NCBI GenBank assembly: GCA_002269645.1
Contig: NIVC01001361.1
Span: 62,001 to 126,000, forward strand
Source of the DNA: Macrostomum lignano
Lineage: Eukaryota
Direction of reading: 5' to 3'
DNA length: 64,000 nt
Numbering within the stretch: position 1 is the stretch's first letter; the number at the start of each line of letters is the position of its first letter. Shown piece by piece: positions 4,848 to 31,480 of this stretch. The notes below the pieces were generated by a model that worked only from the letters and a program-made list of their open reading frames with translations, ran no database searches and was not told the origin of the DNA. The position numbers and the translations under genes are program-made.

Positions 4848-5800
4848 GGCAGGCACTCATTTTGGCGCCGCAGGCACTCATTTTTGCGCCACAGAAACTC
4901 ATTTTGGCGCCACAGAAACTCATTTTGGCGCCACAGAAACTCATTTTAGCGCCGCAGGCACTCATTTTAGCGCCGTAAACACTCATTTTAGCGCCGCAGG
5001 CACTCATTTTAGCGCCGCAGACACTCATTTTAGCGCCACAGGCACTCATTTTGGCGCCGCAGGCACTCATTTTGGCGCCGCAGGCACTCATTTTAGAGCC
5101 GCAGACACTCATTTTAGCGCCGCAGGCACTCATTTTAGCGCCACATGCACTCATTTTAGCGCCATAGGCACTCATTTTAGCGCCACAGGCACTCATTTTA
5201 GCGCCAAAGGCACTCATTTTAGCGCCGCAGGCACTCATTTTAGCGCCGCAGACACTCATTTTAGCGCCACAGGCACTCATTTTGGCGCCGCAGGCACTCA
5301 TTTTGGCGCCGCAGGCACTCATTTTAGCGCCGCAGACACTCATTTTAGCGCCGCAGGCACTCATTTTAGCGCCACATGCACTCATTTTAGCGCCACATGC
5401 ACTCATTTTAGCGCCACAGGCACTCATTTTAGCGCCACAGGCACTCATTTTAGCGCCGCAGGCACTCATTTTAGAGTCGCAGGCACTCATTTTAGCGCCG
5501 CAGGCACTCATTTTAGAGCCGCAGGCACTCATTTTAGAGCCGCAGGCACTCATTTTAGAGCCGCAGGCACTCATTTTAGAGCCGCAGGCATTCATTTTAC
5601 AGCCGCAGGCACTCATTTTAGCGCCGCAGGCACTCATTTTAGCGCCGCAGGCACTCATTTTAGCGCCACAGGCACTCATTTTAGAGCCACAGGCACTCAT
5701 TTTAGCGCCGCAAGCACTCATTTTAGCGCCGCAGGCACTCATTTTAGCGCCGCAGGCACTCATTTTAGCGCCACAGGTACTCATTTTAGCGCCGCAAGCA
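4848..5800. repeat. 21-bp minisatellite (GCAGGCACTCATTTTAGCGCC)n, left part of an array split by the Polinton
   Basis: About 45 direct tandem units. The long ORFs here are translations of the repeat. Confidence 0.97.
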
Positions 5801-6466
5801 ACTACTAAGGGATTCCGAATGGCTCGATTTTGCGAAGGTCCGTCGGGCTGATGTCGGCCTCTAGCACCGCGGCAAGGTGCTCCCTCGGGGTGTACCACCT
5901 CCCCCGGGGTGTACCTCCAGCGGGGTGGGTGTCCAGCGAGTGTACCTCCAGCGGGGTGGGCCTCCCGCGAGTGTACATCCGGCCGGCTGGGCGTCCAGCG
6001 AGTGTACCTTCAGCGCATGGGCCTCCCTCGGGGTGTACATCCGGCGGGGGGATTCCCGCCCCTCCCACCAATGTCGTGTGCACGCGGTTAGTGTAGGAAG
6101 GAAACCCCCGATGCTGACGCAGCCCTGTACACTGAGCAACCGGCCCCCATGCGGGGGACAGAGAGCAGCCCTGTAGCTGGGGACAGAGAGCAGCCCCTGT
6201 AGCAGGAGGGGTAGTGCGTGGAGAGCCGCCATCCCCCTGTAGCAGGGGACAGATAACAGGCGACCCCTGTAGCAGTATGAGGTGGGGTACAAAGAGACAC
6301 GGGGTGCTGGGACAGAGAGTGCGTGGAGGCACCCTGCGCTGCCCTGGCATGTCGCAGCACGCGGCGTGGACAGAGAGGGAGTATGAATCACACCCCCCGC
6401 GGAGAGAGCGGCCCAGTCTGGAGGCGCGGGACAGACCGGGGGTGAGTGATAGAGAGCTCCCCCAGG
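5801..6466 (+). repeat. Left terminal inverted repeat
   Basis: 5801-6393 is the near-exact reverse complement of 15764-16357 (differences seen: one C-run length and a few substitutions). A further imperfect block 6428-6466 matches 15689-15726. Confidence 0.95.
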
Positions 6467-6557
6467 GCAGTAGAGGACTTGAAAAGAAAAAACACGTATT
6501 TTAGTTGTTTCAGGTTCAGGCCATCCGGCAAACAGAGCAAAGCTCTCCAACAGTGTT

Positions 6558-7187
6558 TTATTTAGCATAAACTACGGGGTAGCGCCCCAACACATTAGCA
6601 TAGTAGCGAACAGATGCGTTCTGCAAGCAATTAACAATCAAGTAGGAGTAGGGCTCCCTAGTGGCGTCTTCGTACATTTGAACAAAACTTTTTGGGTTAG
6701 CGGGGACAAGCTGCTTTGCAATATGGGCGACTGTACTAACGTCCCGTACATTGCGGAACAATACAAGGTAGTTTGCGTTAAGGGATTGAGTGCGGTGCTC
6801 CTTGCCCTTGGCAAACAGGTTTTGTACAAGGTACCAAAGCCGGAATCCCACATGGCTGACTTTGCGAGTGAAAAATGCGGTAAAAGCAGCGTTTTTTTCC
6901 ATGGCTTGCATTTGATCATCGACAACGAGTAGAATATTCGGAGCGGGAACATAGGTTTCAGGGTTAAATGTAGACGAGCGAAAATTGACAGGGTACGGTA
7001 ATTCAAACAGTTCCGGGTCTGGATAGTGCCCAAACCAATCAACGCGAACAGGCTTAGGGTCCTGAAAAAACTCGTTTCGCAGCAATTCTTTAACAAGAGT
7101 TGTTTTTCCGCTCTGGTTAACACCAGCAAAAATCGCCGAAGTATTTGGAGCAAACTTTAGAGCGTCAGGATCAATTGTTTGGTACAT
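6558..7187 (-). CDS. A32/FtsK-like genome-packaging ATPase
   Basis: Walker A GVNQSGKT, Walker B LLVVDD, then FTRKVSH..LVQNLF..RTQSLNANYLVLF..RD typical of Polinton ATPases. First ATG is at 7187 (the 7211 start is TTG). Confidence 0.92.
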   Translation of the reverse strand: MYQTIDPDALKFAPNTSAIFAGVNQSGKTTLVKELLRNEFFQDPKPVRVDWFGHYPDPELFELPYPVNFRSSTFNPETYVPAPNILLVVDDQMQAMEKNAAFTAFFTRKVSHVGFRLWYLVQNLFAKGKEHRTQSLNANYLVLFRNVRDVSTVAHIAKQLVPANPKSFVQMYEDATREPYSYLIVNCLQNASVRYYANVLGRYPVVYAK

Positions 7188-7221
7188 TTTCAGGGCGAGT
7201 TGACACTCCAAATATTAAAAA

Positions 7222-7658
7222 CTATTTTATTTGTAGAACATGTTTTCGAACCATCAAATCATTTTCAAGCAGATTGGTAGAGTAACATTCCCTTAAAATC
7301 TTTTCAATCGACAACCCCTCTAAAAAGTGCTTTTCGGCCACAAAAATCACATGCGGCCCACACGCTACACTTAGAGGGTGTTGAACAGGGTGGCGATTCA
7401 TAGCAACAGGTGAATGTACATGCATCGAGATCCAAGCCGAGAGCAATTCCGGCACGGGTTCAATACACAGGGGTCAAAAAATGTCACACTCTTATCATCG
7501 TGTAGGCAAATCAGTCCCCAGTGGGTGCCTGGCAGATTACCCGTGTCAAAATTAATTACATATGCAGCAGGGTAAACAGGTGCAGGAATTCTGTCGAGAG
7601 GGCAAACGTGCACTTCCACAGGTAGTTTTAAACGCTCCAAAATTTCCAACGTGTTCAT
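7222..7658 (-). CDS. Adenain-like cysteine protease, split by a 1-nt frameshift (~7467); ~145 aa when repaired
   Basis: GTHW (His) and FFD (Asp) are in ORF 7398-7658; QHPLSVACG (Gln/Cys) is in ORF 7222-7455. Restoring one G gives the continuous FFDPCGIEPVPELL. Confidence 0.88.
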
Positions 7659-8936
7659 ACGTAGTCCAGAATGGGCTGGCGGCCTCTAGTGATTTGCACG
7701 CGTTGTCAAAGTAACCAAACACCAAAACGTTAATCCCGGCAGGTAGGGCTGCAGAAAACTTTATCTGTAGGGTCAGATTCCCTCTCTCGCGAGGCATGCT
7801 ATGTCCACCCAGTTCCATGTCGGGCATTAGATTCCACGCAAATAAGCAGTAACCGGCGCGATAATCCGAATATGACAGGTCAATGTCCAAATCGCGATTC
7901 ATTTTCCCTAGGCTCTTAAACAGCATGGCGTATTCGCGAGCATAGTTTTGGGCAGCGAACCTTGGAGTGAATGGTTGACCGCACAGACTGACACCGTCCT
8001 TGTACAGGGCCACACTGTCCGCCCCAAATGGCTCGAAATTGAACGGATTATGGGTGGCCACCCCGTTATATGCGGCACTATTGACCATCCCATAATGACA
8101 AGTTTAGGCTTCTGCTCCGGGAAAATATTATTGATTGACACGTCGCGAACTCCTACAGCGACAGAGGTGTTGTGTACAACGAGGCGCTCGATGGGGTAGA
8201 CTGCATTCTGAGTCGCCAGCTGTTCTTCAATCTCCAAGGCCAGTTGGGGGTTAGCCTTTACCCGACGAACGTGTAATTTTGCACTTTGAAGAACCAACTT
8301 TGCATCAACCCCTTCGGCGTGATTCTCTACAACGAATCCCGAATTTTGCAGAGTGAGCGTAACCACCATATCAGTGTAGGGTAGCAGCATACGATCGTTG
8401 GTGACAAAAAAGTCGAGACTAAGAGGGCCATACAGGTGAAATGTTCGAGAACCGGCAGCCATCGCCTTGCGAGTTACAAAGCCAGGATTTCCAACCGCAG
8501 CCATTTGACCCCCAGCGTCTTTAGCGTAGCCCATCATCCGCAGTTGGTTAGACTTTGAATCAGACCCATAACTCAAGCATGTACGAATGTACGCCTTGTA
8601 GGCGTGGTTGTTGTTGCTAGACTCGATATGTGTACCATTTATGGAAAGAGACACGTTTTTGAACATGGTCTCCAAGAGGTAATTGATTGGCGCCACGTTT
8701 GAATCCGCCGCCAAATCGGCTCCATTAGCTCTTTTAATACAACCTTTAATCTCGAGATCAATGTCATTAAGATCGACAAACGTCTCGCCGCCCACAATTC
8801 TAAACTCAACCACACTCGCATTTTCGACGCTGGCAACCGGGTGGATTTCTTCAGTAGTTGAACCTACAGCGGCAATCTGGTGGGCTCGAGGGGCAAAGAG
8901 CTCAAACTCGGACTTTGTACACAGACACTCGGACAT
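7655..8936 (-). CDS. Double-jelly-roll major capsid protein (Polinton PY), two 1-nt frameshifts; ~427 aa when repaired
   Basis: N-terminus ECLCTKSEFELF..HQ..EEIHPV..VEFRI..FVDLNDI and middle HNPFNFEPF..VALYKDG..QP. One G restored at ~8089 gives KLVIMGMVNSAAYNG; one G at ~7700 gives DNAVQITRGRQPILDYV*, whose TGA overlaps the protease ATG. Confidence 0.92.
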
Positions 8937-8965
8937 GTTTAGTAGACAGACTCGATTCGGCGAAT

Positions 8966-9310
8966 CTAATTGAAGCGGGGCTTTTTATTTATAGTGCTGA
9001 AAATGTCTGAATTGAGACGCTTCGGAGCCTTTTTTCTTCTTCGTCCGCTACCCCTTTGGGTAACCGTGTCTTTAAAGGCGTCCTTGGCAGCCTGAACAGA
9101 ATTGCGCAGGACAGACTCCTTCAAATTGCCTCCTTGCTCGAGGCTATCGTTAACAGTAGTTGCTAGGGCTCTAGTACCATGACGGAGAACGTTTTTACCA
9201 AAACTCTTTAGAATTGGCAGCGCGAAGCGGGCAATGCTTCCAAACAAACCGTTGCCCCTCTGGGCGCCCGCGAAAACAGGCAAAGCTCCACCAATCAGAA
9301 TAGAAGGCAT
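8966..9310 (-). CDS. Basic core-like virion protein with adenain-type cleavage sites
   Basis: FAGAQRGNGLFGSIARFALPILKSFGK amphipathic segment, QRGSGRRRKK basic tail. This is a conserved Polinton ORF type located between penton and capsid. Confidence 0.75.
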   Translation of the reverse strand: MPSILIGGALPVFAGAQRGNGLFGSIARFALPILKSFGKNVLRHGTRALATTVNDSLEQGGNLKESVLRNSVQAAKDAFKDTVTQRGSGRRRKKAPKRLNSDIFSTINKKPRFN

Positions 9311-9353
9311 GATTAAGCACTAGGATATAGTTTACTGAGGCTGTGCTGTTTAT

Positions 9354-10484
9354 TTATAGCTTCTTTTCGCGGATGTTAACGCTCAAGACGGTCTTGCCCC
9401 TCATTACTTTTGTCATATCCCTGCCCATATCATCGTTAATTTGTACTTCAATAGTTTTGAATGGGTGCTTAACCAGCGGTAGATATGCCGGATTGACAAA
9501 CTCGTAGTACTCGCGACCGCCCTGAACTTTGGGATCCATCGGTATAGCTCCCAACAGAGGAACTTTAACGTCTCCTACAATAACAGAATCGACTATGCTC
9601 GAATAGATGTACATTGTTTGTATTCCACCGGTTAATTCCATTGATGCGTTTGCGTAGAAATCCGATATACCGAAAAATGGGGTTGTATAATCATGCTCTG
9701 GGAAACCAAGCACGCTGGTCAAGCGCCCCAACCCAAACATGTAATCCACCGAGCCGATGTAATAACACCTATTCGTAACTTCGCTGTATCCGAAAAAGTC
9801 CTTTCTAGGTGCTGGAGCCGCTATGAGATCTTTGATCCGTTTCCAAATTAAATCGTTGAGTTCCTCCACCAATCTTTTAGGTGTACTATAGTATCCACCC
9901 TGCATAAAATAGATTTGATCAGACGCTGCGCTAGTAACTTGTCTTATTATTGGAGCGTGGTCCATTGACTGTACAGTCGGTTCCTCAACAACTGCGGTGA
10001 TGGAGGCTGCACACCCCGCGTGTAATACGAGTTCAGTAGGTAGATCCTCATTAGACTCGAAGCCGGCGACTAGTTTAAACACCTTGGGTAGGGCATCCGG
10101 GAATTTGATGCCGACGGTGGATTTTGAAGTATTCACAATCATAAAGGCGGTTGGGGATGTTCTTAAAAAGACAATTTTCTTATTATCCCCTTCAACGTAT
10201 CGGATACCGTTTAGAAAGCCGGAAATACATTCTTCAGGGGTTTTCAGACCCGCTGCGAGACAAAGGCTTGCAAACGACGAAGCCGTCAAGAGGCCCTCCT
10301 GTTCGCGAATGGTGATCGGTATAGATTTTTTGAAAGATTCAAATTCTTTGGTAAAGTAGATCCGTTCGAGGCAAACCTCATGATTCGGAAAGTGGAGAGT
10401 GTCCGGTAAATTAATAAAATAATGAGCCGGATTATTTTCGGGATAGTGCTCGGGGCACGCATTGCTAGGCAGAAAGAGATGCAT
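9354..10484 (-). CDS. Minor capsid (penton, single jelly-roll) protein
   Basis: LFLPSN..YPENNP..F..LP..L...EVCLERIYF N-terminus; MYIYSSIVDSVIVGDVKVPLL..EFVNPAYLPL..F.TIEVQINDDMGR C-terminus. Confidence 0.85.
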   Translation of the reverse strand: MHLFLPSNACPEHYPENNPAHYFINLPDTLHFPNHEVCLERIYFTKEFESFKKSIPITIREQEGLLTASSFASLCLAAGLKTPEECISGFLNGIRYVEGDNKKIVFLRTSPTAFMIVNTSKSTVGIKFPDALPKVFKLVAGFESNEDLPTELVLHAGCAASITAVVEEPTVQSMDHAPIIRQVTSAASDQIYFMQGGYYSTPKRLVEELNDLIWKRIKDLIAAPAPRKDFFGYSEVTNRCYYIGSVDYMFGLGRLTSVLGFPEHDYTTPFFGISDFYANASMELTGGIQTMYIYSSIVDSVIVGDVKVPLLGAIPMDPKVQGGREYYEFVNPAYLPLVKHPFKTIEVQINDDMGRDMTKVMRGKTVLSVNIREKKL

Positions 10485-10496
10485 GGTAGCCACGCA

Positions 10497-11575
10497 TTAG
10501 TTATTATTACGTTGACGTATATTTATAACTTCATTTACAGGTACAAATGAATTAAAAGTGTCGGGATAACCGCGCCAGCTAACGTAATGGTGCGCAACAC
10601 CATTTATTAACACGTTTCTACGCAAAACTTTATTGATTACAAAACGCTCGGGTCGGGTAGATTTGGACAGTTCATTGTAGTAAAACCGTCCCTCAATCAC
10701 TTCACCAGACAAATCAGAAATACGATAAAAATGTGGGGGTCCAGGGCAAACTTTGGATATAATGTACACCTCCTCACTATACATGTCGTATGCCTCCTTG
10801 TCGAATGCCCTGCGAGATTTCGAAATTCTCACAAAATCCCCCTTTTTATATACGGGGTCGTCTTTTTGCTGATCCGGGTAGAGCTTTTCCCACACACGCT
10901 TCTGATTGTGGAACCCTACACTTGACGGTTTCATCTCAATAGTAGAATGCGTCGTGTTGTTGTAATTGCCTACAAATTAGGTAAGTAGTCAACCCAACGC
11001 CACGTGTTGTTGTGCTCAAAGTAGCGAGCCAGACGCTTTCGAAGAGTTCTAATCAGCCTCTCGGCCATGTTTGCCTTGTACACAGAGTTGGTGCTGTACA
11101 TTTTAACATTATTGTCTTTTAGTATGCGGCGCATTCGCTGATTATAAAACTCGGTACCCCGATCCACGTGAAGGTAAAGGGGGCGGGCAGGGAAATCATT
11201 CGCCAACATTGACTCAAACGCTGCGGGGGTATCACTCTTTAGTTTAATTGCCCTACAAAAAGCCTGCTTACTAAGCACATCAATAATAACTAGTATATAT
11301 TTATGTCCGTCATTCCAACGTTTGTATCGCGACATGTCCATCAAATCGGCTTGTAGAGTTTCCATGAATCCTCCCGACATTACTTTTCCCGTTTTAAATG
11401 TCCTGTTGACTCTCCGGTGACGGGTGTAACTCGGTTGGGTTTCTAGCCATTCCCTGGTTTGGCGTCTTGTCAGGTTTGGCGCCAGACGTTTGGCCTCCTG
11501 ATAGACACGGGCAGCATTTGAAAAAGCGGCGGCTCCTTGTTCGTAAACTCGACGAAGAGCGGTTAGAGCCCTCAT
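10497..11575 (-). CDS. rve (DDE) integrase with C-terminal chromodomain, one 1-nt frameshift (~10975); ~359 aa when repaired
   Basis: QADL..IDVLSK..VDRGTEF..AERLIRTL (D,D,E). Restoring one T gives NFVGNYNNTTHSTIEMKP. Ends with the chromodomain-like HYVSWRGYPDTFNSFVP. Confidence 0.92.
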
Positions 11576-11672
11576 TGACAACAAGTGTGGATGCACAGCA
11601 TGAATAGTTGCACGTAATGTCGGCTGGGGAGTTGTCTACACAAAGCTTTGACGCGGCTGCTGCTGCGCCCAT
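11572..11672 (-). CDS. Putative 33-aa Cys-rich microprotein (needs one restored A)
   Basis: ATG lies 37 nt downstream of TATAAATA. Restoring AA>AAA gives MGAAAAASKLCVDNSPADITCNYSCCASTLVVK* with an ATGA overlap into the integrase. Confidence 0.3.
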
Positions 11673-11707
11673 GACCGCCGGCGCGCGGTTATGTTTGGAC
11701 TAGGGTT

Positions 11708-12334
11708 CTATTTATAAAGAGTCACGTATTTTTTCTTTTTCTCGGGTGGTCTTAGTTGGTAATCGTGATATTTACCCACCCCGGTACCTCGATCGACAAG
11801 TTTGGGCATAGCATTTACACCTTTGTTGCGCGTGGTCGTTAAATCGCGGGTGTCTGTCGCAATTGTGTGCTCATATTCATCGCGGTAATCGTCGGTACCA
11901 ACCATATGGTCAACCTTCTTTTCCTCCACAGGGAGCTGTTTCCGACCGAGCATAGACATTGGTATACGGGCCTTGTCTAGCAGAGCCCAGAAAGCGGTTG
12001 AATATTTCGGGTGATTATTAGTGTTGGTGGTGACGGCTTGTAGAAGATCAAAAACGTTGCTGCCACCCCAAGTTTCACCATCAAAAACGACTTCCCACGA
12101 TTGGTTGTAATTTAGGCTGGGGTGCTTTTCTGTTAGTATATTCCATATACGTTGTTGCCTATCAGAAAATAGCTGCTTTGTCGTCTTTTGGGGTTTTACT
12201 TTAGCCAATTGGGTCTGTAGCTTTGCATTGTACTCTACAAGTTTTTCGTACTCCGATTTTGGGGCAATTTCTCGCGGAGTACCCTGTCTAAGCTGATTGA
12301 ATTCCTCCTCGGGGACCACAACGTACTTGTCCAT
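11708..12334 (-). CDS. Conserved Polinton-type hypothetical protein
   Basis: YNQSWEVVFDGETWGGSNVFDLL motif resembles the WN..GE.V..G..I.GSNI.DL ORF common in Polintons. Tightly packed in the gene string. Confidence 0.65.
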   Translation of the reverse strand: MDKYVVVPEEEFNQLRQGTPREIAPKSEYEKLVEYNAKLQTQLAKVKPQKTTKQLFSDRQQRIWNILTEKHPSLNYNQSWEVVFDGETWGGSNVFDLLQAVTTNTNNHPKYSTAFWALLDKARIPMSMLGRKQLPVEEKKVDHMVGTDDYRDEYEHTIATDTRDLTTTRNKGVNAMPKLVDRGTGVGKYHDYQLRPPEKKKKYVTLYK

Positions 12335-12336
12335 TT

Positions 12337-12726
12337 TCAACGTCGTTGTCCTAGCAGACCACCAAACAGTCCAGTGATTAACGGTGCAGCAATCTTGGCG
12401 AGAATTGGTAGGAATCCTCCAACTTGAGGGTCCGATAGTATCATATTCTTCTTCCTATTTATAGACAGTTTTTTGTCGGCCATGTCATGCAGGGCTTCTC
12501 TATAACGTTTCAACCTTGCAAACTGTCTAGGGGATAGATCGATATTGCCCTTGAGTACATTGTGGCTTAACTCGCACAGACACTGCATCAACTCATTATC
12601 GGCTCCCCTAATAATGGCCCTCCTTCGATGTGGTCGCGCGTCACCGAGCTCCTCTAGCTCGCGACGGCAAGAACAAAGACGAGAAATTCCGTTTGTCATT
12701 ATTAAGGTGGTAAGCATTGCGTGCAT
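12337..12726 (-). CDS. Adenovirus pX-like precursor with C-terminal amphipathic peptide
   Basis: ELMQCLCELSHNVLKGNIDLS..L.RYRE.L..MA..K and QVGG|FLPILAKIAAPLITGLFGGLLG, similar to the adenoviral pX GGILPLLIPLIAAAIG. Confidence 0.75.
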   Translation of the reverse strand: MHAMLTTLIMTNGISRLCSCRRELEELGDARPHRRRAIIRGADNELMQCLCELSHNVLKGNIDLSPRQFARLKRYREALHDMADKKLSINRKKNMILSDPQVGGFLPILAKIAAPLITGLFGGLLGQRR

Positions 12727-12764
12727 ACATGTGCATATTTTGTTTATTTATAAGCAAAGCATAA

Positions 12765-13283
12765 TTAGAGTTGCAGAATAGCAGTCACGTGGTCGTACAT
12801 TTTACACAGTTCGTCATAGTTTCGTATTCCTAGGAACACTAACCGACCATTCTTTCCGCACAGCAGGCACTTGGCCTTGCGGAATGGGGACTTTATTACA
12901 AGCCCATTGAATACCTCACTCTCCCACTCAACCCAGCGCGAGCTCGAGTTGGCAAGGCGGAAAAAGTTTGGCTTAACATTAACTTCTGCACGATAAGTAC
13001 CGGTAGTGATAACAACAGAGTTTGGTTTACATTGAGCAAAAAGACGCAGCACATCGTTGGTTGATTGGCAACCAAAAACAATGGCAGATAATGAACGTTT
13101 GAAAAAGTTTATTGTACACTTTCCGATCCTCAGGTTGTACAATGCCCGGGGTCTATGAAACGTTCTAGCGCGCGCCCAGTCCAAGTTCGGTAGGTGGTTC
13201 CACCTTGCGCAAAACACCCTGTTTACGCACACGACGTTCTGCAAGCGGTTTTTTCGGTTGCTTTTGTTTCCGCTCAGCTCCAC
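12765..13283 (-). CDS. TATA-binding-protein (TBP/TRF)-like protein
   Basis: Two TBP repeats: LQNVVCV...INFFKRSLSAIVFGCQSTND and WESEVFNGLVIK...LCGKNGRLVFLGIRNYDELCKMYDHVTAIL (cf. TBP [65 protein letters not shown]). No ATG; the start shown is GTG. Confidence 0.75.
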   Translation of the reverse strand: MELSGNKSNRKNRLQNVVCVNRVFCARWNHLPNLDWARARTFHRPRALYNLRIGKCTINFFKRSLSAIVFGCQSTNDVLRLFAQCKPNSVVITTGTYRAEVNVKPNFFRLANSSSRWVEWESEVFNGLVIKSPFRKAKCLLCGKNGRLVFLGIRNYDELCKMYDHVTAILQL

Positions 13284-13845
13284 CAGCTCCGCGCTTGCGT
13301 CCTACCTTGATTTTTAACGGTGGAATCCAGTAGCAGCGGTCAAACGCCTGCTTGGGAGCTTCTATGAATTGCAGTTGTTGAATTTTCGGCACCGCGGTTA
13401 GAACCGAGTCGTGAATCACCGCCGTGTCTAGGGCGAACAGTACTCTATAGTAGCCCGTCTTGTTCTTGTAGTCGGTGCACAACTTGCCGCTCTTGTCGTA
13501 CATTTTAAAGTCGTGAGCCAATCCGAATGCAGCGCTGTCGCAGCCAAAAGTGGGGTTGTACCCCAATAGCGCCATTCCTTGGATAGAGAGCTGGTGACAC
13601 ACGGAATTGAACGCTTCTGGTATGCAGCTCTCCAAGTGCTTTTGGGAAAGAATGATGAATTCGCGGCCTTCATTGTCGGTTCTCACACCCTTGACAATCA
13701 GTACGGGCGTCGCATTGGCAAGATAGAGAGGGCCCTGTTCGTCGTACTCAATGTCGTACGTCTCGGTTCCGTTGTAGCTTGGACCTCTCGACTTGAGAGA
13801 GAATAGGTCGATCCTAACACTATTGTAGTCTTGAACGGTATCCAT
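13165..13845 (-). CDS. Putative OB-fold ssDNA-binding protein (T7 gp2.5/NCLDV DUF2738-like) with basic tail
   Basis: IEY..PLYLANATPVLIVKGV..G.EF..LS and KMYDKSG..KTGYYRVLFALD..I..VLTAVPKIQQLQFIE resemble that family's pattern. ATG at 13845 lies 44 nt downstream of TATATAAG. Confidence 0.45.
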   Translation of the reverse strand: MDTVQDYNSVRIDLFSLKSRGPSYNGTETYDIEYDEQGPLYLANATPVLIVKGVRTDNEGREFIILSQKHLESCIPEAFNSVCHQLSIQGMALLGYNPTFGCDSAAFGLAHDFKMYDKSGKLCTDYKNKTGYYRVLFALDTAVIHDSVLTAVPKIQQLQFIEAPKQAFDRCYWIPPLKIKVGRKRGAGGAERKQKQPKKPLAERRVRKQGVLRKVEPPTELGLGAR

Positions 13846-13933
13846 GTTGCTGCTGCTGCTGAGAGTGGGTCTCGCTCCTGAGCGCCTCCTTATATACCCT
13901 TGGCGCGGAGGGTGGGGTGGCTGGGCGTTTTTG

Positions 13934-14449
13934 TTATAGTCCTTCTTTAACGACACTTTCCGGTGTTGGAAATCCGGAAAAAATAAACCTTTTGTTTCGA
14001 TCTTCTGGTCGAGGGGTTTGAGGCGTGTCGTGAATGCAGCTGCAGTGAGGGTTGATAGTCAACTTCGCTAGCACTGGTCTACTGTGTTTAGGTCGCCAAA
14101 TCCTTTGGTGTTCCGTCCACGAGGGAGCAATCGGCTGGTGATTCCGGTACCGTATTTTCTCACGATGATCCTCTTGTAATATTGGGGCAATTATCTGCTC
14201 CATTCTTTGAAGATTGGCTTTGAAATGCATCTTGTCTCTAAAGTAGTAGTCAATTCGGGCATCTGTATATTCTTGGGTGCTGTAAGGCCCTTGCCCAATT
14301 TCGTCTACCTCGACATTAAAGGTGACTAATCGTTCGGGAATTGGTTTGCCGTGACAAATGCATAACCAGTCTGTGGACTTTTTCAGGGTCTCGTACTCTG
14401 CCCTTTCTTTGCTCGATAAAAGCGGGTAGTCTCGAGAAATCCAGCTCAT
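13934..14449 (-). CDS. Hypothetical protein, 171 aa, with CxCH and HCxCxH motifs
   Basis: ATG overlaps the upstream stop (ATGA). Intact ORF within the packed gene string. Confidence 0.7.
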   Translation of the reverse strand: MSWISRDYPLLSSKERAEYETLKKSTDWLCICHGKPIPERLVTFNVEVDEIGQGPYSTQEYTDARIDYYFRDKMHFKANLQRMEQIIAPILQEDHREKIRYRNHQPIAPSWTEHQRIWRPKHSRPVLAKLTINPHCSCIHDTPQTPRPEDRNKRFIFSGFPTPESVVKEGL

Positions 14450-14799
14450 TCCTCTGACTCGTCAGATTCGTCGAGAAAGAAATAGTGGAAGAAATTGTCG
14501 ACTCTATTCTTTTCAACTGCACAAAGTATTTTGTCTGACAGGTGAAATTCGCAGTCTCCTTTTACGTACAGGCGCTTCCCGTCGATAACTTTGATAGATG
14601 CGCCGCCTCCGAGATCGTAATCTGTGCAGCTAGTGCCCAGAAATTTCATTCGATGCCATTGTGCTCGACTAAACACGGCTCCTGGACAGCTACAGTTTTG
14701 ACAGTGGATGCGGAAACGCGGCTTGTTTGGGTCCCAATATCCCACTTCCAGCACTGCGTTGTCAACGTGGGTGTACACTATTTCCGATTGCCAGTACAT
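14446..14799 (-). CDS. Hypothetical protein, ~117 aa, weak PC4-like signature, acidic tail
   Basis: ATG at 14799 lies 32 nt downstream of TATAAATA. GAVFSRAQWHRMK resembles PC4 GISLNPEQWSQLK. Ends DESDESEE. Confidence 0.6.
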   Translation of the reverse strand: MYWQSEIVYTHVDNAVLEVGYWDPNKPRFRIHCQNCSCPGAVFSRAQWHRMKFLGTSCTDYDLGGGASIKVIDGKRLYVKGDCEFHLSDKILCAVEKNRVDNFFHYFFLDESDESEE

Positions 14800-14833
14800 T
14801 TCGATATTGTTGAGAAATACCAATTTTATTTAT

Positions 14834-15613
14834 TTATAGGCTGCCGTCTGAACAGATTTCCAACCATTCCCTCCACTGTAGAACGGTTCTCTCAATTGAT
14901 AAAAGTAAATACGCCGCTAGGAGCCCCCGGTTGCTGCTGCGCGCTTCGTAAAGACAGTTGAGATATGTGTCTCTATTTGCATACGCAAATGATACGGGTT
15001 CTGGCAGAATCCGGTTGATCAACTTTGATAATAACAACCTAGCAGTTCTACCATTGCCGTCGCTAAAGGGGTGTATGGTGAGAAACTTTTCTAGGAAATA
15101 TGCTCCTGTCACTACTGCATCACGCAAGATTTGTGGCTCTTTTATGTCTCTAGTTAATTTTACCAGCTGCCGTTCAATATTTTCTGGGGCACTGTAATAC
15201 ATACTCGCGCCTGCTGGCTTGGCGTGCTTAATTCTATACGATCCTGCATTCGGGAGCAGTCCTCTACACACGCGTGTGTGAACTTGTCTAACAAACTCTG
15301 TGTCAATTAACCCCCTCGTGTCATTGAGGTGTTTTGCCGCACTCCATAGATTGGCTGTGACCATACAGGACCCGGTTTTTATCGCTTCTTCTGCTTCCTC
15401 CCAAGTCAACGCCACCTCTCTCTCCTCAATGTTTACTTCAGTTACGAATGCCAGCCGGGCTAGATACGTGAATTCTAAGCGCTCCTTTGCGGTCAATCCC
15501 TCGATTCTTTTCCTAGTGTCTGATAACAATCTTTCAATGAGGGGTAATCTGGCGCGCACGCTCTCGTTGCTGAAATAGGGGTTATCAGTTATACCCTCTT
15601 CCATGTTCTCCAT
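14834..15613 (-). CDS. Fic-domain protein (AMPylase-like), FICD-type architecture
   Basis: Canonical HPFSDGNGRTAR motif. Upstream VTEVNIEE..LTWEEAEEAIKTG aligns with the FICD inhibitory helix TVAIEGNTLTLSEI; VRQVHTRV..AGSYR is also present. Confidence 0.9.
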   Translation of the reverse strand: MENMEEGITDNPYFSNESVRARLPLIERLLSDTRKRIEGLTAKERLEFTYLARLAFVTEVNIEEREVALTWEEAEEAIKTGSCMVTANLWSAAKHLNDTRGLIDTEFVRQVHTRVCRGLLPNAGSYRIKHAKPAGASMYYSAPENIERQLVKLTRDIKEPQILRDAVVTGAYFLEKFLTIHPFSDGNGRTARLLLSKLINRILPEPVSFAYANRDTYLNCLYEARSSNRGLLAAYLLLSIERTVLQWREWLEICSDGSL

Positions 15614-15688
15614 ACAGAGGGTTTTGTACACTGCTTCTATTTATGGTTGCATTAACACGTTGCTCGCGGCCTGTCTGTCCCTCTGCAG

Positions 15689-16357
15689 CCTGGGGGGCTC
15701 TCTATCACTCACCGCCGGTCTGTCCCTCTACCACCCCGGCCTGGGGAAGCTCTCTGTCCCTCCGTGTGACTCACACTCCCTCTCTGTCCACGCCGCGTGC
15801 TGCGACATGCCGGGGCAGCGCAGGGTGCCTCCACGCACTCTCTGTCCCAGCACCCCGTGTCTCTTTGTACCCCACCTCATACTGCTACAGGGGTCGCCTG
15901 TTATCTGTCCCCTGCTACAGGGGGATGGCGGCTCTCCACGCACTACCCCTCCTGCTACAGGGGCTGCTCTCTGTCCCCAGCTACAGGGCTGCTCTCTGTC
16001 CCCCGCATGGGGGGCCGGTTGCTCAGTGTACAGGGCTGCGTCAGCATCGGGGGTTTCCTTCCTACACTAACCGCGTGCACACGACATTGGTGGGAGGGGC
16101 GGGAATCCCCCCGCCGGATGTACACCCCGAGGGAGGCCCATGCGCTGAAGGTACACTCGCTGGACGCCCAGCCGGCCGGATGTACACTCGCGGGAGGCCC
16201 ACCCCGCTGGAGGTACACTCGCTGGACACCCACCCCGCTGGAGGTACACCCCGGGGGAGGTGGTACACCCCGAGGGAGCACCTTGCCGCGGTGCTAGAGG
16301 CCGACATCAGCCCGACGGACCTTCGCAAAATCGAGCCATTCGGAATCCCTTAGTAGT
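15689..16357 (-). repeat. Right terminal inverted repeat
   Basis: Reverse complement of 5801-6466. Confidence 0.95.
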
Positions 16358-16998
16358 CAAGCACTCATTTTAGCGCCGCAGACACTCATTTTAGCGCCGC
16401 AGGCACTCATTTTAGCGCCGCAGGCACTCATTTTAGCGCCGCAGACACTCATTTTAGCGCCACAGGCACTCATTTTGGCGCCACAGGCACTCATTTTAGC
16501 GCCGCAGGCACTCATTTTAGAGTCGCAGGCACTCATTTTAGCGCCACAGGCACTCATTTTAGCGCCGCAGACACTCATTTTAGAGCCGCAGGCACTCATT
16601 TTAGAGCCGCAGGCACTCATTTAAGAGCCGCAGGCATTCATTTTACAGCCGCAGGCACTCGTTTTAGAGCCGCAGGCACTCATTTTAGAGCCGCAGGCAC
16701 TCATTTTAGCGCCGCAGACACTCATTTTAGCGCCACAGGCACTCATTTTGGCGCCACAGGCACTCATTTTAGCGCCGCAAGCACTCATTTTAGCGCCGCA
16801 AGCACTCATTTTAGCGCCGCAGGCACTTATTTTAGCGCCGCAGGCACTTATTTTAGCGCCGCAGGCACTTATTTTAGCGCCACAGGCACTCATTTTAGCG
16901 CCACAGGCACTCATTTTAGAGCCGCAGGCACTCATTTTAGCGCCACAGGCACTCATTTTAGAGCCGCAGGCACTCATTTTAGAGCCGCAGGCACTCAT
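16358..16998. repeat. 21-bp minisatellite, right part of the split array, same orientation as 4848-5800
   Basis: The repeat resumes in register after the TSD: CAAGCA|CTCATTTTAGCGCC. Confidence 0.97.
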
Positions 16999-18317: not shown

Positions 18318-21300
18318 TCAAAAGAACTTTGAATTGTCGAAGGCCTCATTGTCGATGCCGCCGCTGCGGCTGGAGCCTTGAACTGCTTCGACGATGCCAC
18401 TGACTTCGCCGCCAGTGCTAGGCGATGGGCCTTCTATCGATTGCGAGTCGTCACCGTCAGGACCAGCCATGGGCAGCTCTAAAAACTCCCGCTCGGCAAC
18501 GGGGATCTCAGACGGAGGGCTGTTCACTGTCACATCGTCGACTTTTGATGTCGGACGGGTCGACGATTCAGCTTCGGCGTTGACCGGCGCTGACGCCACG
18601 GTGTGACTATCGATGTTGATATCCTCGACGTTGACAGACGGCTGGCCGAGGTACCTGCGAAGTGTCCCGTTTCACGTGCATTTTTAATAATAATGCTTGG
18701 CAAATGGCTGGCGAAGCATCGCTAAGCTGCTAATTTCTGAGTCAATGGGTGCGAGTTGAACAAGGTCTGTTGTGTGTTGTCAAGTGTCCTCCTAGTATAG
18801 AGAACGAATGGGGTTTTGCCATAGACAAATTAGGTGGAGAAAAAATCAAATTCCTCTAGAGAATTACTAAACTCACTAGCGATGCGACAACTTTTTCGTT
18901 GCCCCAGCTCATTTCTAAGAAAGTCGAATATACTGTCAGTTCCCATGAGGATATCCTGGATTTATGGTAAAAATTCAACTTTCTATTTGTTTATTGCTCT
19001 AAGAAAAACATGTTAGACATGTTACACTACTTCATCTATGGGCTCTGCTTCTCCGCCAGTCATTTTTGTCTATGGTCAAAAGTCATTTCGGGACCAGTTA
19101 GAGCCATTTAAGTTTCATTTCATTGAAGTTCAGGCTATAGACATACCAATCCCCCACTTGCCTAGGGTGTGAGTCCATTGTGTCACACCTGCTGAATTTG
19201 GCCATGGACTACATGTTTGACTAGTCGTATCAAATGATGGCGCTCGGTTGACGGGGAAATGACGGCCATAATAAAATCTTCACGCAGTCAAAATGCTTGT
19301 AATTTGTATCATGTTGATTTCTCATGGACTTTGCCCTTGAAAACAGTATTCGCTGCACTTGTCTCTCGCATATTATTAGAATAAATCAATATTCGCAGGA
19401 GGGCTGTGCACAGTGTGACGCAACTCCTTAGGGGACATCGTCCCGCAGCCAGCATCTGCCCGTTCCGCTGACTCCTGAGCACATGCAGGCGCGCTAATAC
19501 TGTACGCAGGCACGCACTCACACACCGCTCACACAGGGTGTACAGCGGCCCTGACTTTCTAATCGTCAGGCATGTACACTCTCTGTGCCCTGGGGCTGGC
19601 CCTCATGCCTGTGAATCGCACGACAAAACCAAGGGTCATGGCGCAAGGCCAATATAACAGAACTTCACCTGTTCATGTCCAGATTGGCGAAGTCGGTCAT
19701 GCAGGTCAGCACGTAGCTGGGGAAATTCTCCCCTGGCGGAGCTTCAACGCTGAACTCGTCCGGCCCGGTGGCCGTGTCGCCGTCGCGCACAGCGAAGGAG
19801 CCGGTGACGCGGACCTGCAGCAGGAAGCGGCGGGAGGACCGCTCCACGGGGAACTGGCACTCGCGGTTGCGCTTGATGGCAACGGCGTCCAGCTCGCACG
19901 GCACGTGCAGCCGACGGGCGCCGGCGGACGAGAGTGGCGCCATTTCAACGTCCGCGGCTCTGGAGGCGGCAATAGTTGCCGAGACCGAGCTGATGGCGGA
20001 TGCGGTGGCGGCAGCTGGGACCATGATGGGGTGCCGGTAGCCGTACCGGCTGGGCCGGCATCTGCCAAGAGAGAGCGAGTGCAGCGAGTGTTCAGCGAGT
20101 TGCACTTTTTCACAAGCCGGTCTTTCTGCTGGCATTCAATGGAGTAGCTTGTTTTACCAGATGTTTGAAATTTCTGCAACAATAACTACTTATCACCATG
20201 TCAGAAACATTAAAATCTAGGAAGCTTACAAACCTGCGAAAAATCAAACAAATTTAAAATCGAGACAAAAGTCTATCGAACCCGACCCGACACAAACCTA
20301 AAAAACCCAAAGACACAAACCTACAAAACCCAAAGACACAAACCTACAAAACCCAGACACAAACCTACAAAACCCGACAAGACACAAACCTACAAAACCC
20401 AAAGACACAAACCTACAAAACCCAAAGACACAAACCTACAAAACCCAAAGACACAAACCTACAAAACCCAGACACAAACCTACAAAACCCGACAAGACAC
20501 AAACCTACAAAACCCAAAGACACAAACCTACAAAACCCAAAGACACAAACCTACAAAACCCAGACACAAACCTACAAAACCCAGACACAAACCTACAAAA
20601 CCCAAAAACACAAACCTACAAAACCCAGACACAAACCTACAAAAACCGACAAGACACAAACCTACAGAACCCGTGAAGAGACAAGACACAAAGACACAAA
20701 CAAGCAGAAAATCAAAATAGACAAACATAAAGATACACGGACATGAACAGCTGCCGTTTACACATTAAGAATATTTCGCAGACGCACCTGCCAGTCGTTC
20801 TCGAGCGTTTCCGACGAATCCGTTTAACCTGCGACTTGCCGCTGGCCTCGTCCCGGTGCAAGTAGAGCAGCGCCGGGGCCCTGAACATCTCGCGCATGTC
20901 CCAGTCAACTGTGCGCCCGGCAACCCGGGCTCGAACTTTGCGCCTGCAGGGGCAGCAGCTGAGCACTCCGGATCCGTGATAGTCTGGCGTGAACACCAGC
21001 GACTGCAGGTCCACCTCGGCGATGTCGCCTCGGCAGTGCAGGAATGCGTAAAGAAGCAGCCGGCAGATGTACCTGCGGGCGGAGTTCGACTCAATATATT
21101 GCGGTCTAAAAGACCTCTTGTTGGGTTTTGTAGGCTGTTTCCCATTTGAACTTTTAGATTTGTCTCTTTTTGGGTTTTGTAGGTTTGTGTCTTTTTGGGT
21201 TTTGTAGGTTTGTGTCTTTGGCTTTTGTAGGTTTGTGTCTTTTTGGGTTTTGTAGGTTTGTGTCTTTTTGGGTTTTGTAGGTTTGTGTCTTTTTGGGTTT

Positions 21301-22479
21301 TGTAGGTTTGTGTCTTTGGGTTTTGTAGGTTTGTCTCTTTGTGGGTTTTGTAGGTTTGTGTCTTTGGGTTTTGTAGGTTTGTCTCTTTGTGGGTTTTGTA
21401 GGTTTGTGTTTTTGGGTTTTGTAGGTTTGTGTCTTTTGGGTTTTGTAGGTTTGTGTCTTTGGCTTTTGTAGGTTTGTGTCTTTTTGGGTTTTGTAGGTTT
21501 GTGTCTTTTTGGGTTTTGTAGGTTTGTGTCTTTGGCTTTTGTAGGTTTGTCTTTGGCTTTTGTAGGTTTGTGTCTTTTTGGGTTTTGTAGGTTTGTGTCT
21601 TTATGGGTTTTGTAGGTTTGTGTCTTTTTGGGTTTTGTAGGTTTGTGTCTTTTTGGGTTTTGTAGGTTTGTGTCTTTGGCTTTTGTAGGTTTGTCTTTGG
21701 GTTTTGTAGGTTTGCGTTTTTGGGTTTTGTAGGTTTGTGTCTTTGGCTTTTGTAGGTTTGTGTCTTTGGGTTTTGTAGGTTTGTGTTTTTGGGTTTTGTA
21801 GGTTTGTGTCTTTGGGTTTTGTAGGTTTGTGTCTTGTCGGGCTTGGAAGGTTTGTGTCTGTGGGTATTGTAAGTTTGTGTCTTCAGGTTTTGTCGTTTAT
21901 GTATTTTCGGTTTTGTAAGCTTCTATTTTCAAGTTTATCTTTTCAGCTTTTGTAGTCTCGTGTCTTGTCGGGTTTTGTAGGATGTGCTGTGTCAGCGATT
22001 TCTGTAGGTTTGCGTCTTCTCGGGTTTTGTAGGTTTGTGCCTTTATCGGCGCGCTACTGCTGAGCAACTCTGGCAAACAAAGTCTTTACTCAAGTACTTC
22101 ACTGTGTTTGCTATCCTTGGCTGAAGTTCATGGCGCTCAACTAAAAAACCTAGTCCACAGCACTTGAGGTAAATGTAGTGCATGCCCTTGTCCCTCACCT
22201 AGCGACCCGCCTGACGTCCTCGGGCGCGCGCAGGGCGCCCAGCTGCCACTCGTAGACCAGGCAGAACTGTCGCAGCAGCCGCAGGGCGGTGCCCCGAGTC
22301 CGCTCGGCCGCTTCAGAGTCGACAAGAAGGCGGCCGATTCGCGAGTTCGGCCGGGCGCCCCGGCTGCGCCGCTTAGCCAAACTCGACCAGGCCTCCTCGC
22401 TGCTGCTCAGAAATTCGCGCAAGTTCTGATCATACCTGAGCAACTGGACGGGTTTGGCGCGGTGTAAGCCATTAGCCAT
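18318..22479 (-). CDS. Four-exon host gene, ~442 aa, unknown function (exons 22479-22199, 21105-20788, 20061-19669, 18654-18318)
   Basis: All junctions are GT-AG with matching phase 2, and the joined frame is open from ATG to TGA. Confidence 0.65.
20290..20670 (+). repeat. 20-22-bp minisatellite (GACACAAACCTACAAAACCC[AAA])n
   Basis: Tandem units seen directly. Confidence 0.9.
21165..21840 (-). repeat. Same minisatellite in inverted orientation (GGGTTTTGTAGGTTTGTGTC)n
   Basis: Reverse complement of the 20290-20670 unit. Confidence 0.9.
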
Positions 22480-29014: not shown

Positions 29015-31480
29015 TTATAGTGACATCATATATTCCACAGGGAGTGCCATCATATATTTCACTCGGAGTGACATCATATATTCCACAGGGAGTGCCATCA
29101 TATATTCCACAGGGAGTGACATCATATATTTCACTCGGAGTGACATCATATATTCCACAGGGAGTGACATCATATATTTCACTCGGAGTGACATCATATA
29201 TTCCACAGGGAGTGACATCATATATTACACGGGGAGTGACATCATATATTACACGGGGAGTGACATCATATATTCCACAGGGAGTGACATCATATATTCC
29301 ACAGGGAGTGACATCATATATTCCACAGGGAGTGACATCATATATTACACGGGGAGTGACATCATATATTCCACAGGGAGTGACATCATATATTTCACTC
29401 GGAGTGACATCATATATTCCACAGGGAGTGACATCATATATTCCACAGGGAGTGACATCATATATTACACGGGGAGTGACATCATATATTACACGGGGAG
29501 TGACATCATATATTCCACAGGGAGTGACATCATATATTCCACAGGGAGTGACATCATATATTCCACAGGGAGTGACATTATATATTCCACAGGGAGTGAC
29601 ATCATATATTCCACAGGGAGTGACATCATATATTCCACGGGGAGTGACATCATATATTCCACAGGGAGTGACATCATATATTCCACGGGAGTGACATCAT
29701 ATATTCCACAGGGAGTGACATCATATATTCCACAGGGAGTGACATCATATATTCCACAGGGAGTGACATCATATATTCCACAGGGAGTGACATCATATAT
29801 TCCACAGGGAGTGACATCATATATTCCACAGGGAGTGACATCATATATTCCACAGGGAGTGACATCATATATTCCACAGGGAGTGACATCATATATTCCA
29901 CAGGGAGTGACATCATATATTCCACAGGGAGTGACATCATATATTCCACAGGGAGTGACATCATATATTCCACAGGGAGTGACATCATATATTCCACAGG
30001 GAGTGACATCATATATTCCACGGGAGTGACATCATATATTCCACAGGGAGTGACATCATATATTCCACAGGGAGTGACATCATATATTCCACGGGAGTGA
30101 CATCATATATTCCACGGGAAGTGACATCATATATTCCACAGGGAGTGACATCATATATTCCACAGGGAGTGACATCATATATTCCACAGGGAGTGACATC
30201 ATATATTCCACAGGGAGTGACATCATATATTCCACAGGGAGTGACATCATATATTCCACAGGGAGTGACATCATATATTCCACAGGGAGTGACATCATAT
30301 ATTCCACAGGGAGTGACATCATATATTCCACAGGGAGTGACATCATATATTCCACAGGGAGTGACATTATATATTCCACAGGGAGTGACATCATATATTC
30401 CACAGGGAGTGACATCATATATTCCACGGGGAGTGACATCATATATTCCACAGGGAGTGACATCATATATTCCACGGGAGTGACATCATATATTCCACAG
30501 GGAGTGACATCATATATTCCACAGGGAGTGACATCATATATTCCACAGGGAGTGACATCATATATTCCACAGGGAGTGACATCATATATTCCACAGGGAG
30601 TGACATCATATATTCCACAGGGAGTGACATCATATATTCCACAGGGAGTGACATCATATATTCCACAGGGAGTGACATCATATATTCCACAGGGAGTGAC
30701 ATCATATATTCTACAGGAAGTGACATCATATATTCCACAGGGAGTGACATTATATATTCCACAGGAAGTGACATCATATATTCCACAGGGAGTGACATCA
30801 TATATTCCACAGGGAGTGACATCATATATTCCACAGGGAGTGACATTATATATTCCACAGGAAGTGACATCATATATTCCACAGGGAGTGACATCATATA
30901 TTCCACGGGGAGTGAGATCATATATTCCACAGGGAGTGACATCATATATTCTACAGGAAGTGACATCATATATTCCACAGGGAGTGACATCATATATTCC
31001 ACGGGGAGTGACATCATATATTCCACAGGGAGTGACATCATATATTCCACAGGGAGTGACATCATATATTCTACAGGAAGTGACATCATATATTCCACAG
31101 GGAGTGACATCATATATTCCACGGGGAGTGAGATCATATATTCCACAGGGAGTGACATCATATATTCTACAGGAAGCGACATCATATATTCCACAGGGAG
31201 TGACATCATATATTCCACGGGAGTGACATCATATATTCCACAGGGAGTGACATCATATATTCCACAGGGAGTGACATCATATATTTCACAGGGAGTGACA
31301 TCATATATTCCACAGGGAGTGACATCATATATTCTACAGGAAGTGACATCATATATTCCACAGGGAGTGACATCATATATTCCACAGGGAGTGACATCAT
31401 ATATTCCACAGGGAGTGACATCATATATTCCACAGGGAGTGACATCATATATTCCACGGGGAGTGACATCATATATTTCA
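29015..31480. repeat. 24-bp minisatellite (GGGAGTGACATCATATATTCCACA)n, ~100 units
   Basis: Highly homogeneous tandem array. Confidence 0.97.

What the first reader, a model, noticed from the sequence alone, without database searches (positions are those of the whole stretch)
5801..16357. Complete-looking Polinton/Maverick virus with no DNA polymerase: a possible helper-dependent endogenous virus
Seen: intact TIRs, a perfect 6-bp TSD, and 12-13 tightly packed same-strand ORFs filling 6558-15613, leaving no room for a ~1,000-aa pPolB. I also find no helicase, primase or HUH motif. Established: Polintons are defined by pPolB plus rve integrase and are usually about 15-25 kb; polymerase-less relatives (some PLVs and virophages) generally carry another replication enzyme such as an SF3 helicase or primase-polymerase. 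Inference: this element can integrate and build virions but must borrow replication from an autonomous Polinton, another virus or the host. The non-structural block (Fic, two unknowns, SSB-like, TBP-like) reads like a host-takeover kit rather than a replicase.
Basis: partly seen in the sequence, partly recalled or inferred. Interest (0 to 1): 0.9.

Follow-up and report, generated by a model that had tools for sequence, protein, structure and literature searches.

The report
Polinton virus split into two elements
This flatworm element carries capsid and integrase genes but no DNA polymerase, and a polymerase sits on a separate jumping element that shares the same DNA ends, so the two likely act as halves of one virus, an arrangement not found for Polintons in my literature searches.

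Summary
The 10,557-bp element has ~680-bp TIRs, a CAAGCA TSD, 13 same-strand genes and no polymerase. It is one of at least 27 near-identical copies (VirA). A sister family (VirB, ~74% nt) also lacks polymerase.

The genome also holds separate 8.7-9.7 kb TIR elements (PolA, PolB). They carry a spliced protein-primed polymerase and no integrase, capsid, ATPase or protease, yet have perfect 6-bp TSDs.

The terminal ~31 bp start ACTAC, unlike the AGTAGT of this genome's ordinary Polintons, and are hypervariable and mosaic. They form two pools: VirA with PolA, and VirB with PolB (Fst 0.02-0.03 within pairs, 0.31-0.41 across). Sequence past base 50 is unrelated. Both halves show saturated synonymous and low non-synonymous A/B divergence. 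Non-coding palindromic satellites, mostly 7-10 kb, use the same ends.

Best reading: a two-segment Polinton. Vir likely integrates and packages, and Pol likely replicates. Complementation and virions are inferred, not shown. Correction: this copy's integrase, capsid and protease frames are each broken. Host: Macrostomum lignano by UniRef labels.

The parts
5795..5800 (.). left target-site duplication CAAGCA
   Evidence: repeated at 16358-16363
5801..6476 (+). left TIR (~680 bp) with internal 31/62-bp tandem repeats
5801..5832 (+). terminal cassette: invariant bases 1-7 and 28-32 around hypervariable, mosaic bases 8-27; same pool as the polymerase elements (PolA) and satellites
6558..7187 (-). 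packaging ATPase (209 aa, Walker A GVNQSGKT)
   Evidence: 30-42% identical to ATPases of ordinary pPolB Polintons in the same genome; Pfam only weak
7222..7658 (-). maturation cysteine protease, frame broken once in this copy
   Evidence: homologues in ordinary Polintons; Peptidase_C48 E 0.06 on another copy
7552..8936 (-). major capsid protein (427 aa in other copies), frame broken once in this copy
   Evidence: homologue of the matching ORF of ordinary Polintons; jelly-roll fold not modelled here
8966..9310 (-). 114-aa small virion-module protein (cupiennin/core-like label is recalled)
   Evidence: open in 26 of 26 copies; 86-87% identical in VirB
9354..10484 (-). likely minor capsid protein (376 aa)
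   Evidence: C-terminal homology to the matching ORF of ordinary Polintons; function inferred from position
10497..11575 (-). rve integrase with weak C-terminal chromodomain, frame broken once in this copy
11708..12334 (-). 208-aa conserved Polinton protein, function unknown
   Evidence: homologues in ordinary Polintons
12337..12726 (-). 129-aa conserved Polinton virion-module protein
   Evidence: homologues in ordinary Polintons
12765..13190 (-). TBP-like protein; no in-frame ATG near the expected start in this copy
   Evidence: Pfam TBP E 1.2e-4, 22.2 bits against cut-off 22.9; PDB TBPs; 76% identical in VirB
13165..13845 (-). 226-aa protein, possibly ssDNA-binding
   Evidence: four unnamed relatives at 46-56%; low-confidence model hits one NCLDV family including R506, EsV-1-76 and p31K; that these are T7-like SSBs is recalled
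13934..14449 (-). 171-aa unknown, conserved in VirB (63-64%)
14446..14799 (-). 117-aa unknown, absent from the VirB copies compared
14834..15613 (-). Fic-domain protein (HPFSDGNGR), absent from the VirB copies compared
15680..16357 (-). right TIR with the same terminal cassette as the left end
16358..16363 (.). right target-site duplication CAAGCA

Best explanation
The element is the capsid-and-integrase half of what is likely a two-segment Polinton, whose polymerase lies on a separate ~9-kb element (PolA) with the same ends. Shown: each half is mobile as a unit with 6-bp TSDs, each lacks the other's genes, and they share and exchange the terminal ~31 bp. Inferred: after excision, the PolA polymerase primes at the ACTACTA ends of either segment and copies it by strand displacement. 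The Vir integrase inserts either segment. The Vir ATPase, capsid proteins and protease package molecules of ~9-10 kb. Template switching between co-replicating ends shuffles the terminal cassette. VirB/PolB are a second, old pair of the same design, and non-coding palindromic satellites parasitise both pairs.
For: Vir copies: 14 of 15 VirA and 6 of 6 VirB complete copies have perfect TSDs; 0 of 21 have pPolB. Pol copies: 18 of 18 PolA and 6 of 6 PolB have perfect, all different 6-bp TSDs; 24 of 24 have pPolB; none is hit by 12 Vir-gene profiles (best E 0.29). All close integrase matches lie on capsid- or Vir-gene-bearing contigs, with nothing between 78% and 36% identity among 113 scored. Terminal bases 8-27: Fst VirA-PolA 0.023, VirB-PolB 0.034, cross pairs 0.31-0.41, while bases 51-100 of paired families are 20-30% alike. 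Four-gamete pairs: 143 of 190 and 72 of 136. One VirA end carries 45 PolA-type bases. Ordinary Polintons have AGTAGT ends and a distant pPolB. The Pol gene is spliced at GT..AG joints in three RNA-guessed runs of three studies and not in the DNA run. A versus B: pS 0.62-0.92 in both halves, dN 0.07-0.5 for Vir and 0.24-0.40 for Pol.
Against: No free DNA, particle or trans-complementation was observed. Expression of the Vir half was not tested. The RNA status of the laid runs is the tool's guess. Genome searches score only the best candidates (40 of 65, 40 of 89, 40 of 110), so a rare fused parent is not excluded. Three Vir ORFs (117, 171, 226 aa) lack a confident fold, so a novel small replicase is not formally excluded. 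Ends are not independent (two per element, some redundant contigs). PolA and VirB share bases 32-50, so pairing has not always been exclusive. Only 1 of 26 VirA copies had all 12 tested frames open.
Confidence: 0.82

Rival explanations
1. Both halves are deletion derivatives of an unseen full-length Polinton (unassembled, episomal or exogenous) that supplies all functions.
For: Mobile polB-less derivatives of complete Polintons are reported in Pieris (10.1101/2025.02.07.637071, passages). Genome searches are capped.
Against: Vir and Pol TIRs are unrelated past base ~32-50, unlike deletion products of one parent. Paired VirA-type and VirB-type ends span 7.6-14.4 kb, plus one 18.4-kb satellite, and the long ones checked lack pPolB. 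Both halves show purifying selection through the A/B split.
Confidence: 0.06
2. The two halves cooperate only as transposons inside the nucleus (trans-acting integrase and polymerase); no virions are made and segments are never packaged.
For: No particles observed here. Spliceosomal introns in the polymerase suggest long nuclear residence. Most copies have broken frames.
Against: Capsid, ATPase and protease are the most constrained genes (dN 0.07-0.14 at saturated dS). The 20 extra non-coding satellites examined are 6.6-9.6 kb rather than shrunken, as expected under a packaging-size constraint (inference).
Confidence: 0.3
3. Vir is replicated by the ordinary autonomous Polintons or by the host; the Pol elements are only passengers of the Vir integrase.
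For: The genome holds many autonomous Polintons. Shared ends could reflect integrase recognition alone.
Against: Ordinary Polintons end in AGTAGT, not ACTAC. Sharing of the variable bases 8-27 by pair, with mosaic exchange, implies co-replication rather than mere integrase recognition. The Pol gene is conserved and spliced.
Confidence: 0.07
4. Same complementation, different history: a polymerase-only linear replicon and a polymerase-less virus of separate origin converged on shared ends, instead of one genome splitting.
For: Vir virion genes are 27-42% identical to those of ordinary Polintons here, while PolA/B pPolB gives no blastp hit to theirs. Polymerase swaps are common in Polintons.
Against: Polintons pairing one class of PolB with the other class of virion module exist as single genomes (PMC8502044 passages), so one ancestor suffices. 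A and B halves co-diverged.
Confidence: 0.25

Closest known systems
Animal Polintons/Mavericks (adintoviruses)
   Same: TIRs, 6-bp TSD, rve integrase, capsid proteins, ATPase and protease; the partner element has a PF03175 pPolB with a VSR-like insert (motif; VSR-bearing pPolB2 described in 10.1101/2023.08.22.554363, passages).
   Different: pPolB and integrase/capsid genes are on two separately inserted elements. Ends are 5'-ACTAC rather than AGT/AG or (AC)3A, and the pPolB has introns, whereas intact vertebrate Mavericks are intronless (PMC8097293 passages).
polB-less Polintons of Pieris mannii (Pannagram preprint)
   Same: Mobile, TIR-flanked, keep virion genes, lack polB.
   Different: There, near-identical polB-bearing parents exist and the loss coincides with retroelement cargo. 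Here no parent was found and a dedicated polymerase-only partner family exists, twice.
Bidnaviruses / Drosophila Vesanto virus
   Same: Polinton-type pPolB on its own segment, with similar TIRs among segments (PMC8363768 passages).
   Different: ssDNA viruses with parvovirus-type capsid and helicase (PMC11071296 passages); no integrase mentioned in the passages read.
Polinton-like viruses and virophages
   Same: Virion module without pPolB in the same element.
   Different: PLVs mostly lack rve integrase and encode another replicase (PMC11161782 passages). None was found here.
Mutually complementing semi-autonomous transposons; copy-back defective-interfering genomes (both recalled, no call)
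   Same: Functions split across elements with shared ends; palindromic non-coding parasites.
   Different: As recalled, these are described for plant retrotransposons and for RNA or adeno/parvoviruses, not for an integrating dsDNA virus.

Membership tests
Polinton/Maverick (canonical) | TIRs of hundreds of bp | tested here: met
Polinton/Maverick (canonical) | 6-bp TSD | tested here: met
Polinton/Maverick (canonical) | rve integrase | tested here: met
   PF00665 over cut-off; frame broken in this copy
Polinton/Maverick (canonical) | pPolB within the same element | tested here: not met
   0 of 21 complete copies; none in the window or in 41 stretches
Polinton/Maverick (canonical) | MCP, minor CP, ATPase, protease | tested here: met
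   homology to the same genes of pPolB Polintons; folds not modelled
Polinton/Maverick (canonical) | AG/AGT terminal motif | tested here: not met
   ends read 5'-ACTACT..AGTAGT-3'; ordinary elements here read AGTAGT
Non-autonomous deletion derivative | an autonomous parent with the same TIRs exists | tested here: not met
   none among the copies and end pairs examined; searches are capped
PLV / virophage | own alternative replicase (helicase, primase-polymerase) | tested here: inconclusive
   no Pfam or PHROG hit; models of two unknown ORFs are low confidence
Bipartite/multipartite virus | essential genes divided over separate molecules without overlap | tested here: met
Bipartite/multipartite virus | segments share cis-acting termini | tested here: met
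Bipartite/multipartite virus | each segment needs the other to replicate or spread | not testable with these tools
   inferred from gene content and TSDs
Bipartite/multipartite virus | segments encapsidated, separately or together | not testable with these tools
   only indirect: capsid constraint and satellite sizes

The most novel reading that the evidence does not exclude
An active multipartite dsDNA virus of an animal: virion and polymerase segments packaged separately in ~10-kb-capacity capsids, each integrating on its own, present as two independent pairs, with size-matched palindromic defective satellites and a recombining 20-bp terminal barcode that may mark partner or strain identity.
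Probability: 0.5. Interest if true: 0.97.

Novelty: new variant of a known kind. Interest (0 to 1): 0.9.

Why it matters
Polintons are defined by polymerase plus integrase in one element, and one large survey kept only pPolB genes linked to an integrase, so split systems would be missed by design. A two-segment Polinton would extend segmented organisation to integrating jelly-roll dsDNA viruses. It would be a living parallel for how segmented pPolB viruses such as bidnaviruses could arise.

Integrated copies record segment ratios, end exchange and satellites directly. The host is a laboratory model and the polymerase appears expressed, so the open question of whether animal Polintons replicate and form virions becomes testable by knock-down and particle sequencing.

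Tried and rejected
- Ordinary autonomous Polintons as helper: different ends, distant polymerase.
- Unique deletion or collapsed assembly: at least 27 near-identical copies at different sites.
- Third coding segment: 20 of 20 further end pairs fetched had no Vir or Pol gene. They were chosen because they were absent from my hit lists. About ten earlier ones were likewise non-viral.
- Folds of unknown ORFs: pLDDT 43 and 40; PDB Foldseek, PDB HMM, Pfam, PHROG and Atlas gave nothing usable. The profile search against representatives never left the queue.
- Relatives with genomic context: none in viral contigs, one distant locus in metagenomes. Whether the 80%-identical MCPs P0005-P0007 are also split is unknown.
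- Homopolymer error as cause of the window's breaks: 0 of 4 indels lie in runs of 3 or more; undecided.
- No holder run was on record as RNA.
- Earlier scan findings: none returned.
Full report
OBSERVATION. The element spans 5801-16357, with ~680-bp TIRs and TSD CAAGCA, inserted in a 21-bp minisatellite. Thirteen minus-strand genes run from the right end: Fic, 117 aa, 171 aa, 226 aa, TBP-like, 129 aa, 208 aa, integrase, minor capsid, 114 aa, major capsid, protease, ATPase. No polymerase is detectable in the window. Integrase, major capsid and protease frames are each broken once in this copy. The same break positions recur in 1-4 other copies. This copy differs from another natural copy by 9 substitutions and 4 short indels in 9 kb, so error versus lesion is open. 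UniRef names the partner polymerase as Macrostomum lignano.

IT IS A MOBILE FAMILY, TWICE. The capsid gene has 27 matches at 97-100% and 13 at 78% among 40 scored of 65 candidates. Fetched copies are collinear. Of 16 VirA stretches, 15 held both ends: 14 have perfect TSDs, 13 distinct. Of 9 VirB stretches, 6 held both ends, all with perfect TSDs. One search added four perfect and two imperfect VirB, and two perfect VirA. Lengths are 9.8-10.6 kb, apart from two longer copies (11.9 and 14.0 kb). A pPolB profile hits none of these 21 (best E 2.1). The two VirB copies compared keep gene order but lack Fic and the 117-aa ORF.

THE PARTNER. I fetched 14 regions around pPolB or distant capsid hits. 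Five showed ordinary Polinton TIRs with AGTAGT ends (14-17 kb). Three were 9.0-9.5 kb elements with the ACTAC ends of VirA or VirB and only a polymerase. These are families too: 40 of 40 scored PolA matches are at 96% or more (89 candidates), and about 28 are full-length PolB matches. Of 22 PolA and 21 PolB stretches, 18 and 6 held both outer ends; the rest ran past the 10-kb stretch or lacked an end and were dropped. All 24 have perfect, different 6-bp TSDs. All 24 carry pPolB, and none is hit by profiles of 12 Vir proteins (best E 0.29). They therefore were inserted with an integrase signature while encoding no integrase. PolA also has a 165-aa ORF with a weak PC4 match (E 0.03). The pPolB lies in several frames. 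Contigs of three RNA-guessed runs from three studies skip GT..AG segments, one contig crossing three introns, and the DNA run shows none of these joints. PolA and PolB group together, apart from ordinary pPolBs (quick tree); VirA and VirB capsids group likewise.

SHARED, RECOMBINING ENDS. Bases 1-7 and 28-32 are nearly invariant and bases 8-27 are hypervariable. On 35 VirA, 39 PolA, 20 VirB and 17 PolB ends (6 unclassified ends left out; ends are not independent), Fst over bases 8-27 is 0.023 for VirA-PolA and 0.034 for VirB-PolB, against 0.31-0.41 for cross pairs. Bases 51-100 of paired families are only 20-30% alike. Four-gamete violations are 143 of 190 and 72 of 136 site pairs. The two ends differ within 6 of 15 VirA and 5 of 18 PolA elements. 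One VirA end begins with 45 PolA-type bases. Cassettes diverge 40-50% between copies whose cores differ by 0.8-2%, though partly co-inherited with the core (Spearman 0.44 and 0.42). PolA and VirB share bases 32-50, a trace of older exchange. Genome-wide exact end counts are 52 VirA-type, 212 PolA-type, 70 VirB-type and 109 PolB-type, with controls at 0. These include satellites and are not segment copy numbers.

AGE AND SELECTION. Between A and B, synonymous sites are near saturation in both halves (pS 0.62-0.92). dN is 0.07 for capsid, 0.08 for ATPase, 0.13 for integrase and protease, and 0.24-0.40 for polymerase exons. The split state therefore likely predates the A/B divergence, and both halves stayed functional; copies within a family are young.

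SATELLITES. Twenty further end pairs, picked because they were absent from my Vir and Pol hit lists, were all without Vir or Pol genes, 6.6-9.6 kb long, with 1.9-kb to whole-length inverted repeats; 18 have perfect TSDs. About ten earlier ones ranged from 1.1 to 18.4 kb. They show that ends alone suffice for mobilisation in trans. Their segment-like sizes suggest a packaging constraint (inference).

MECHANISM. Shown: divided gene content, independent insertion, shared and exchanged ends, a spliced polymerase, purifying selection. From established Polinton biology (terminal protein fused to pPolB; PMC11161782 passages): protein priming at the ends. Inferred: the Pol polymerase copies both segments; the Vir integrase inserts both; the Vir virion module packages them; co-replication drives end exchange. 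The 226-aa ORF may be an SSB (a low-confidence model hits one NCLDV family; the SSB label is recalled). The TBP-like protein may serve viral transcription and Fic is accessory; both roles are untested.

COMPARISON AND NOVELTY. It works like a Polinton but neither half passes the pPolB-plus-integrase test. Ten library searches (listings and abstract starts only) showed no bipartite Polinton and no Macrostomum Polinton study. I read passages, not whole texts, of PMC11161782, PMC8502044, PMC8097293, PMC8363768, PMC11071296, 10.1101/2023.08.22.554363, 10.1101/2025.02.07.637071 and 10.64898/2026.10.13.758929. No supplements were seen, and RepBase and subscription journals were not searchable; these may list the elements. 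The nearest cases are polB-less Pieris Polintons with intact parents and segmented ssDNA bidna-like viruses.

VERDICT. Real, and more interesting than first read: a likely two-segment Polinton with satellites. Confidence 0.82 in mutual complementation and about 0.5 in a true multipartite virion cycle; interest 0.9.

Noticed in passing
G000 C530:311892-321106, C303:572722-582109, C301:37567-47128 and others (L201, L221-L240): Non-coding, near-perfect 7-9.6 kb palindromic satellites with the same terminal cassettes and 6-bp TSDs; separate A-type and B-type interiors.
   Followed up: partly
G000 C150:69198-81089: VirA copy with a duplicated 1.4-kb end whose outer 45 bases are PolA-type: a direct recombinant between segment ends.
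   Followed up: yes
G000 C1313:243594-257956: VirB copy rearranged as an inverted duplication, with capsid-ATPase arms at both ends (14.4 kb).
   Followed up: partly
G000 C4:378061-392019 and C2210:6031-19931: VirA copies of 13.9 kb with inserts; the C4 copy has a 943-aa ORF that looks like a THAP transposase (recalled, not tested).
   Followed up: no
PolA, L129 2078-2938: Two GT..AG splice joints upstream of the main polymerase frames indicate further 5' exons; 11 of 18 PolA copies carry an extra ~340-aa minus-strand ORF.
   Followed up: no
G000 C4619, C114, C393, C506, C1680: At least three groups of ordinary polymerase-bearing Polintons (14-17 kb, AGTAGT ends where TIRs were found) coexist in the genome.
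   Followed up: partly
P0001-P0007: Unnamed public proteins 46-56% identical to the 226-aa ORF and 80-81% identical to the capsid: relatives exist outside this genome, context unknown.
   Followed up: partly
window 20289-21917: A 23-25 bp tandem repeat present as two inverted arrays about 500 bp apart (foldback-like).
   Followed up: no
window 29019-31477, 42918-44327, 50851-51660: A 24-bp minisatellite (103 copies); an alkylglycerol monooxygenase-like ORF; an MFS transporter exon. Ordinary host sequence.
   Followed up: partly
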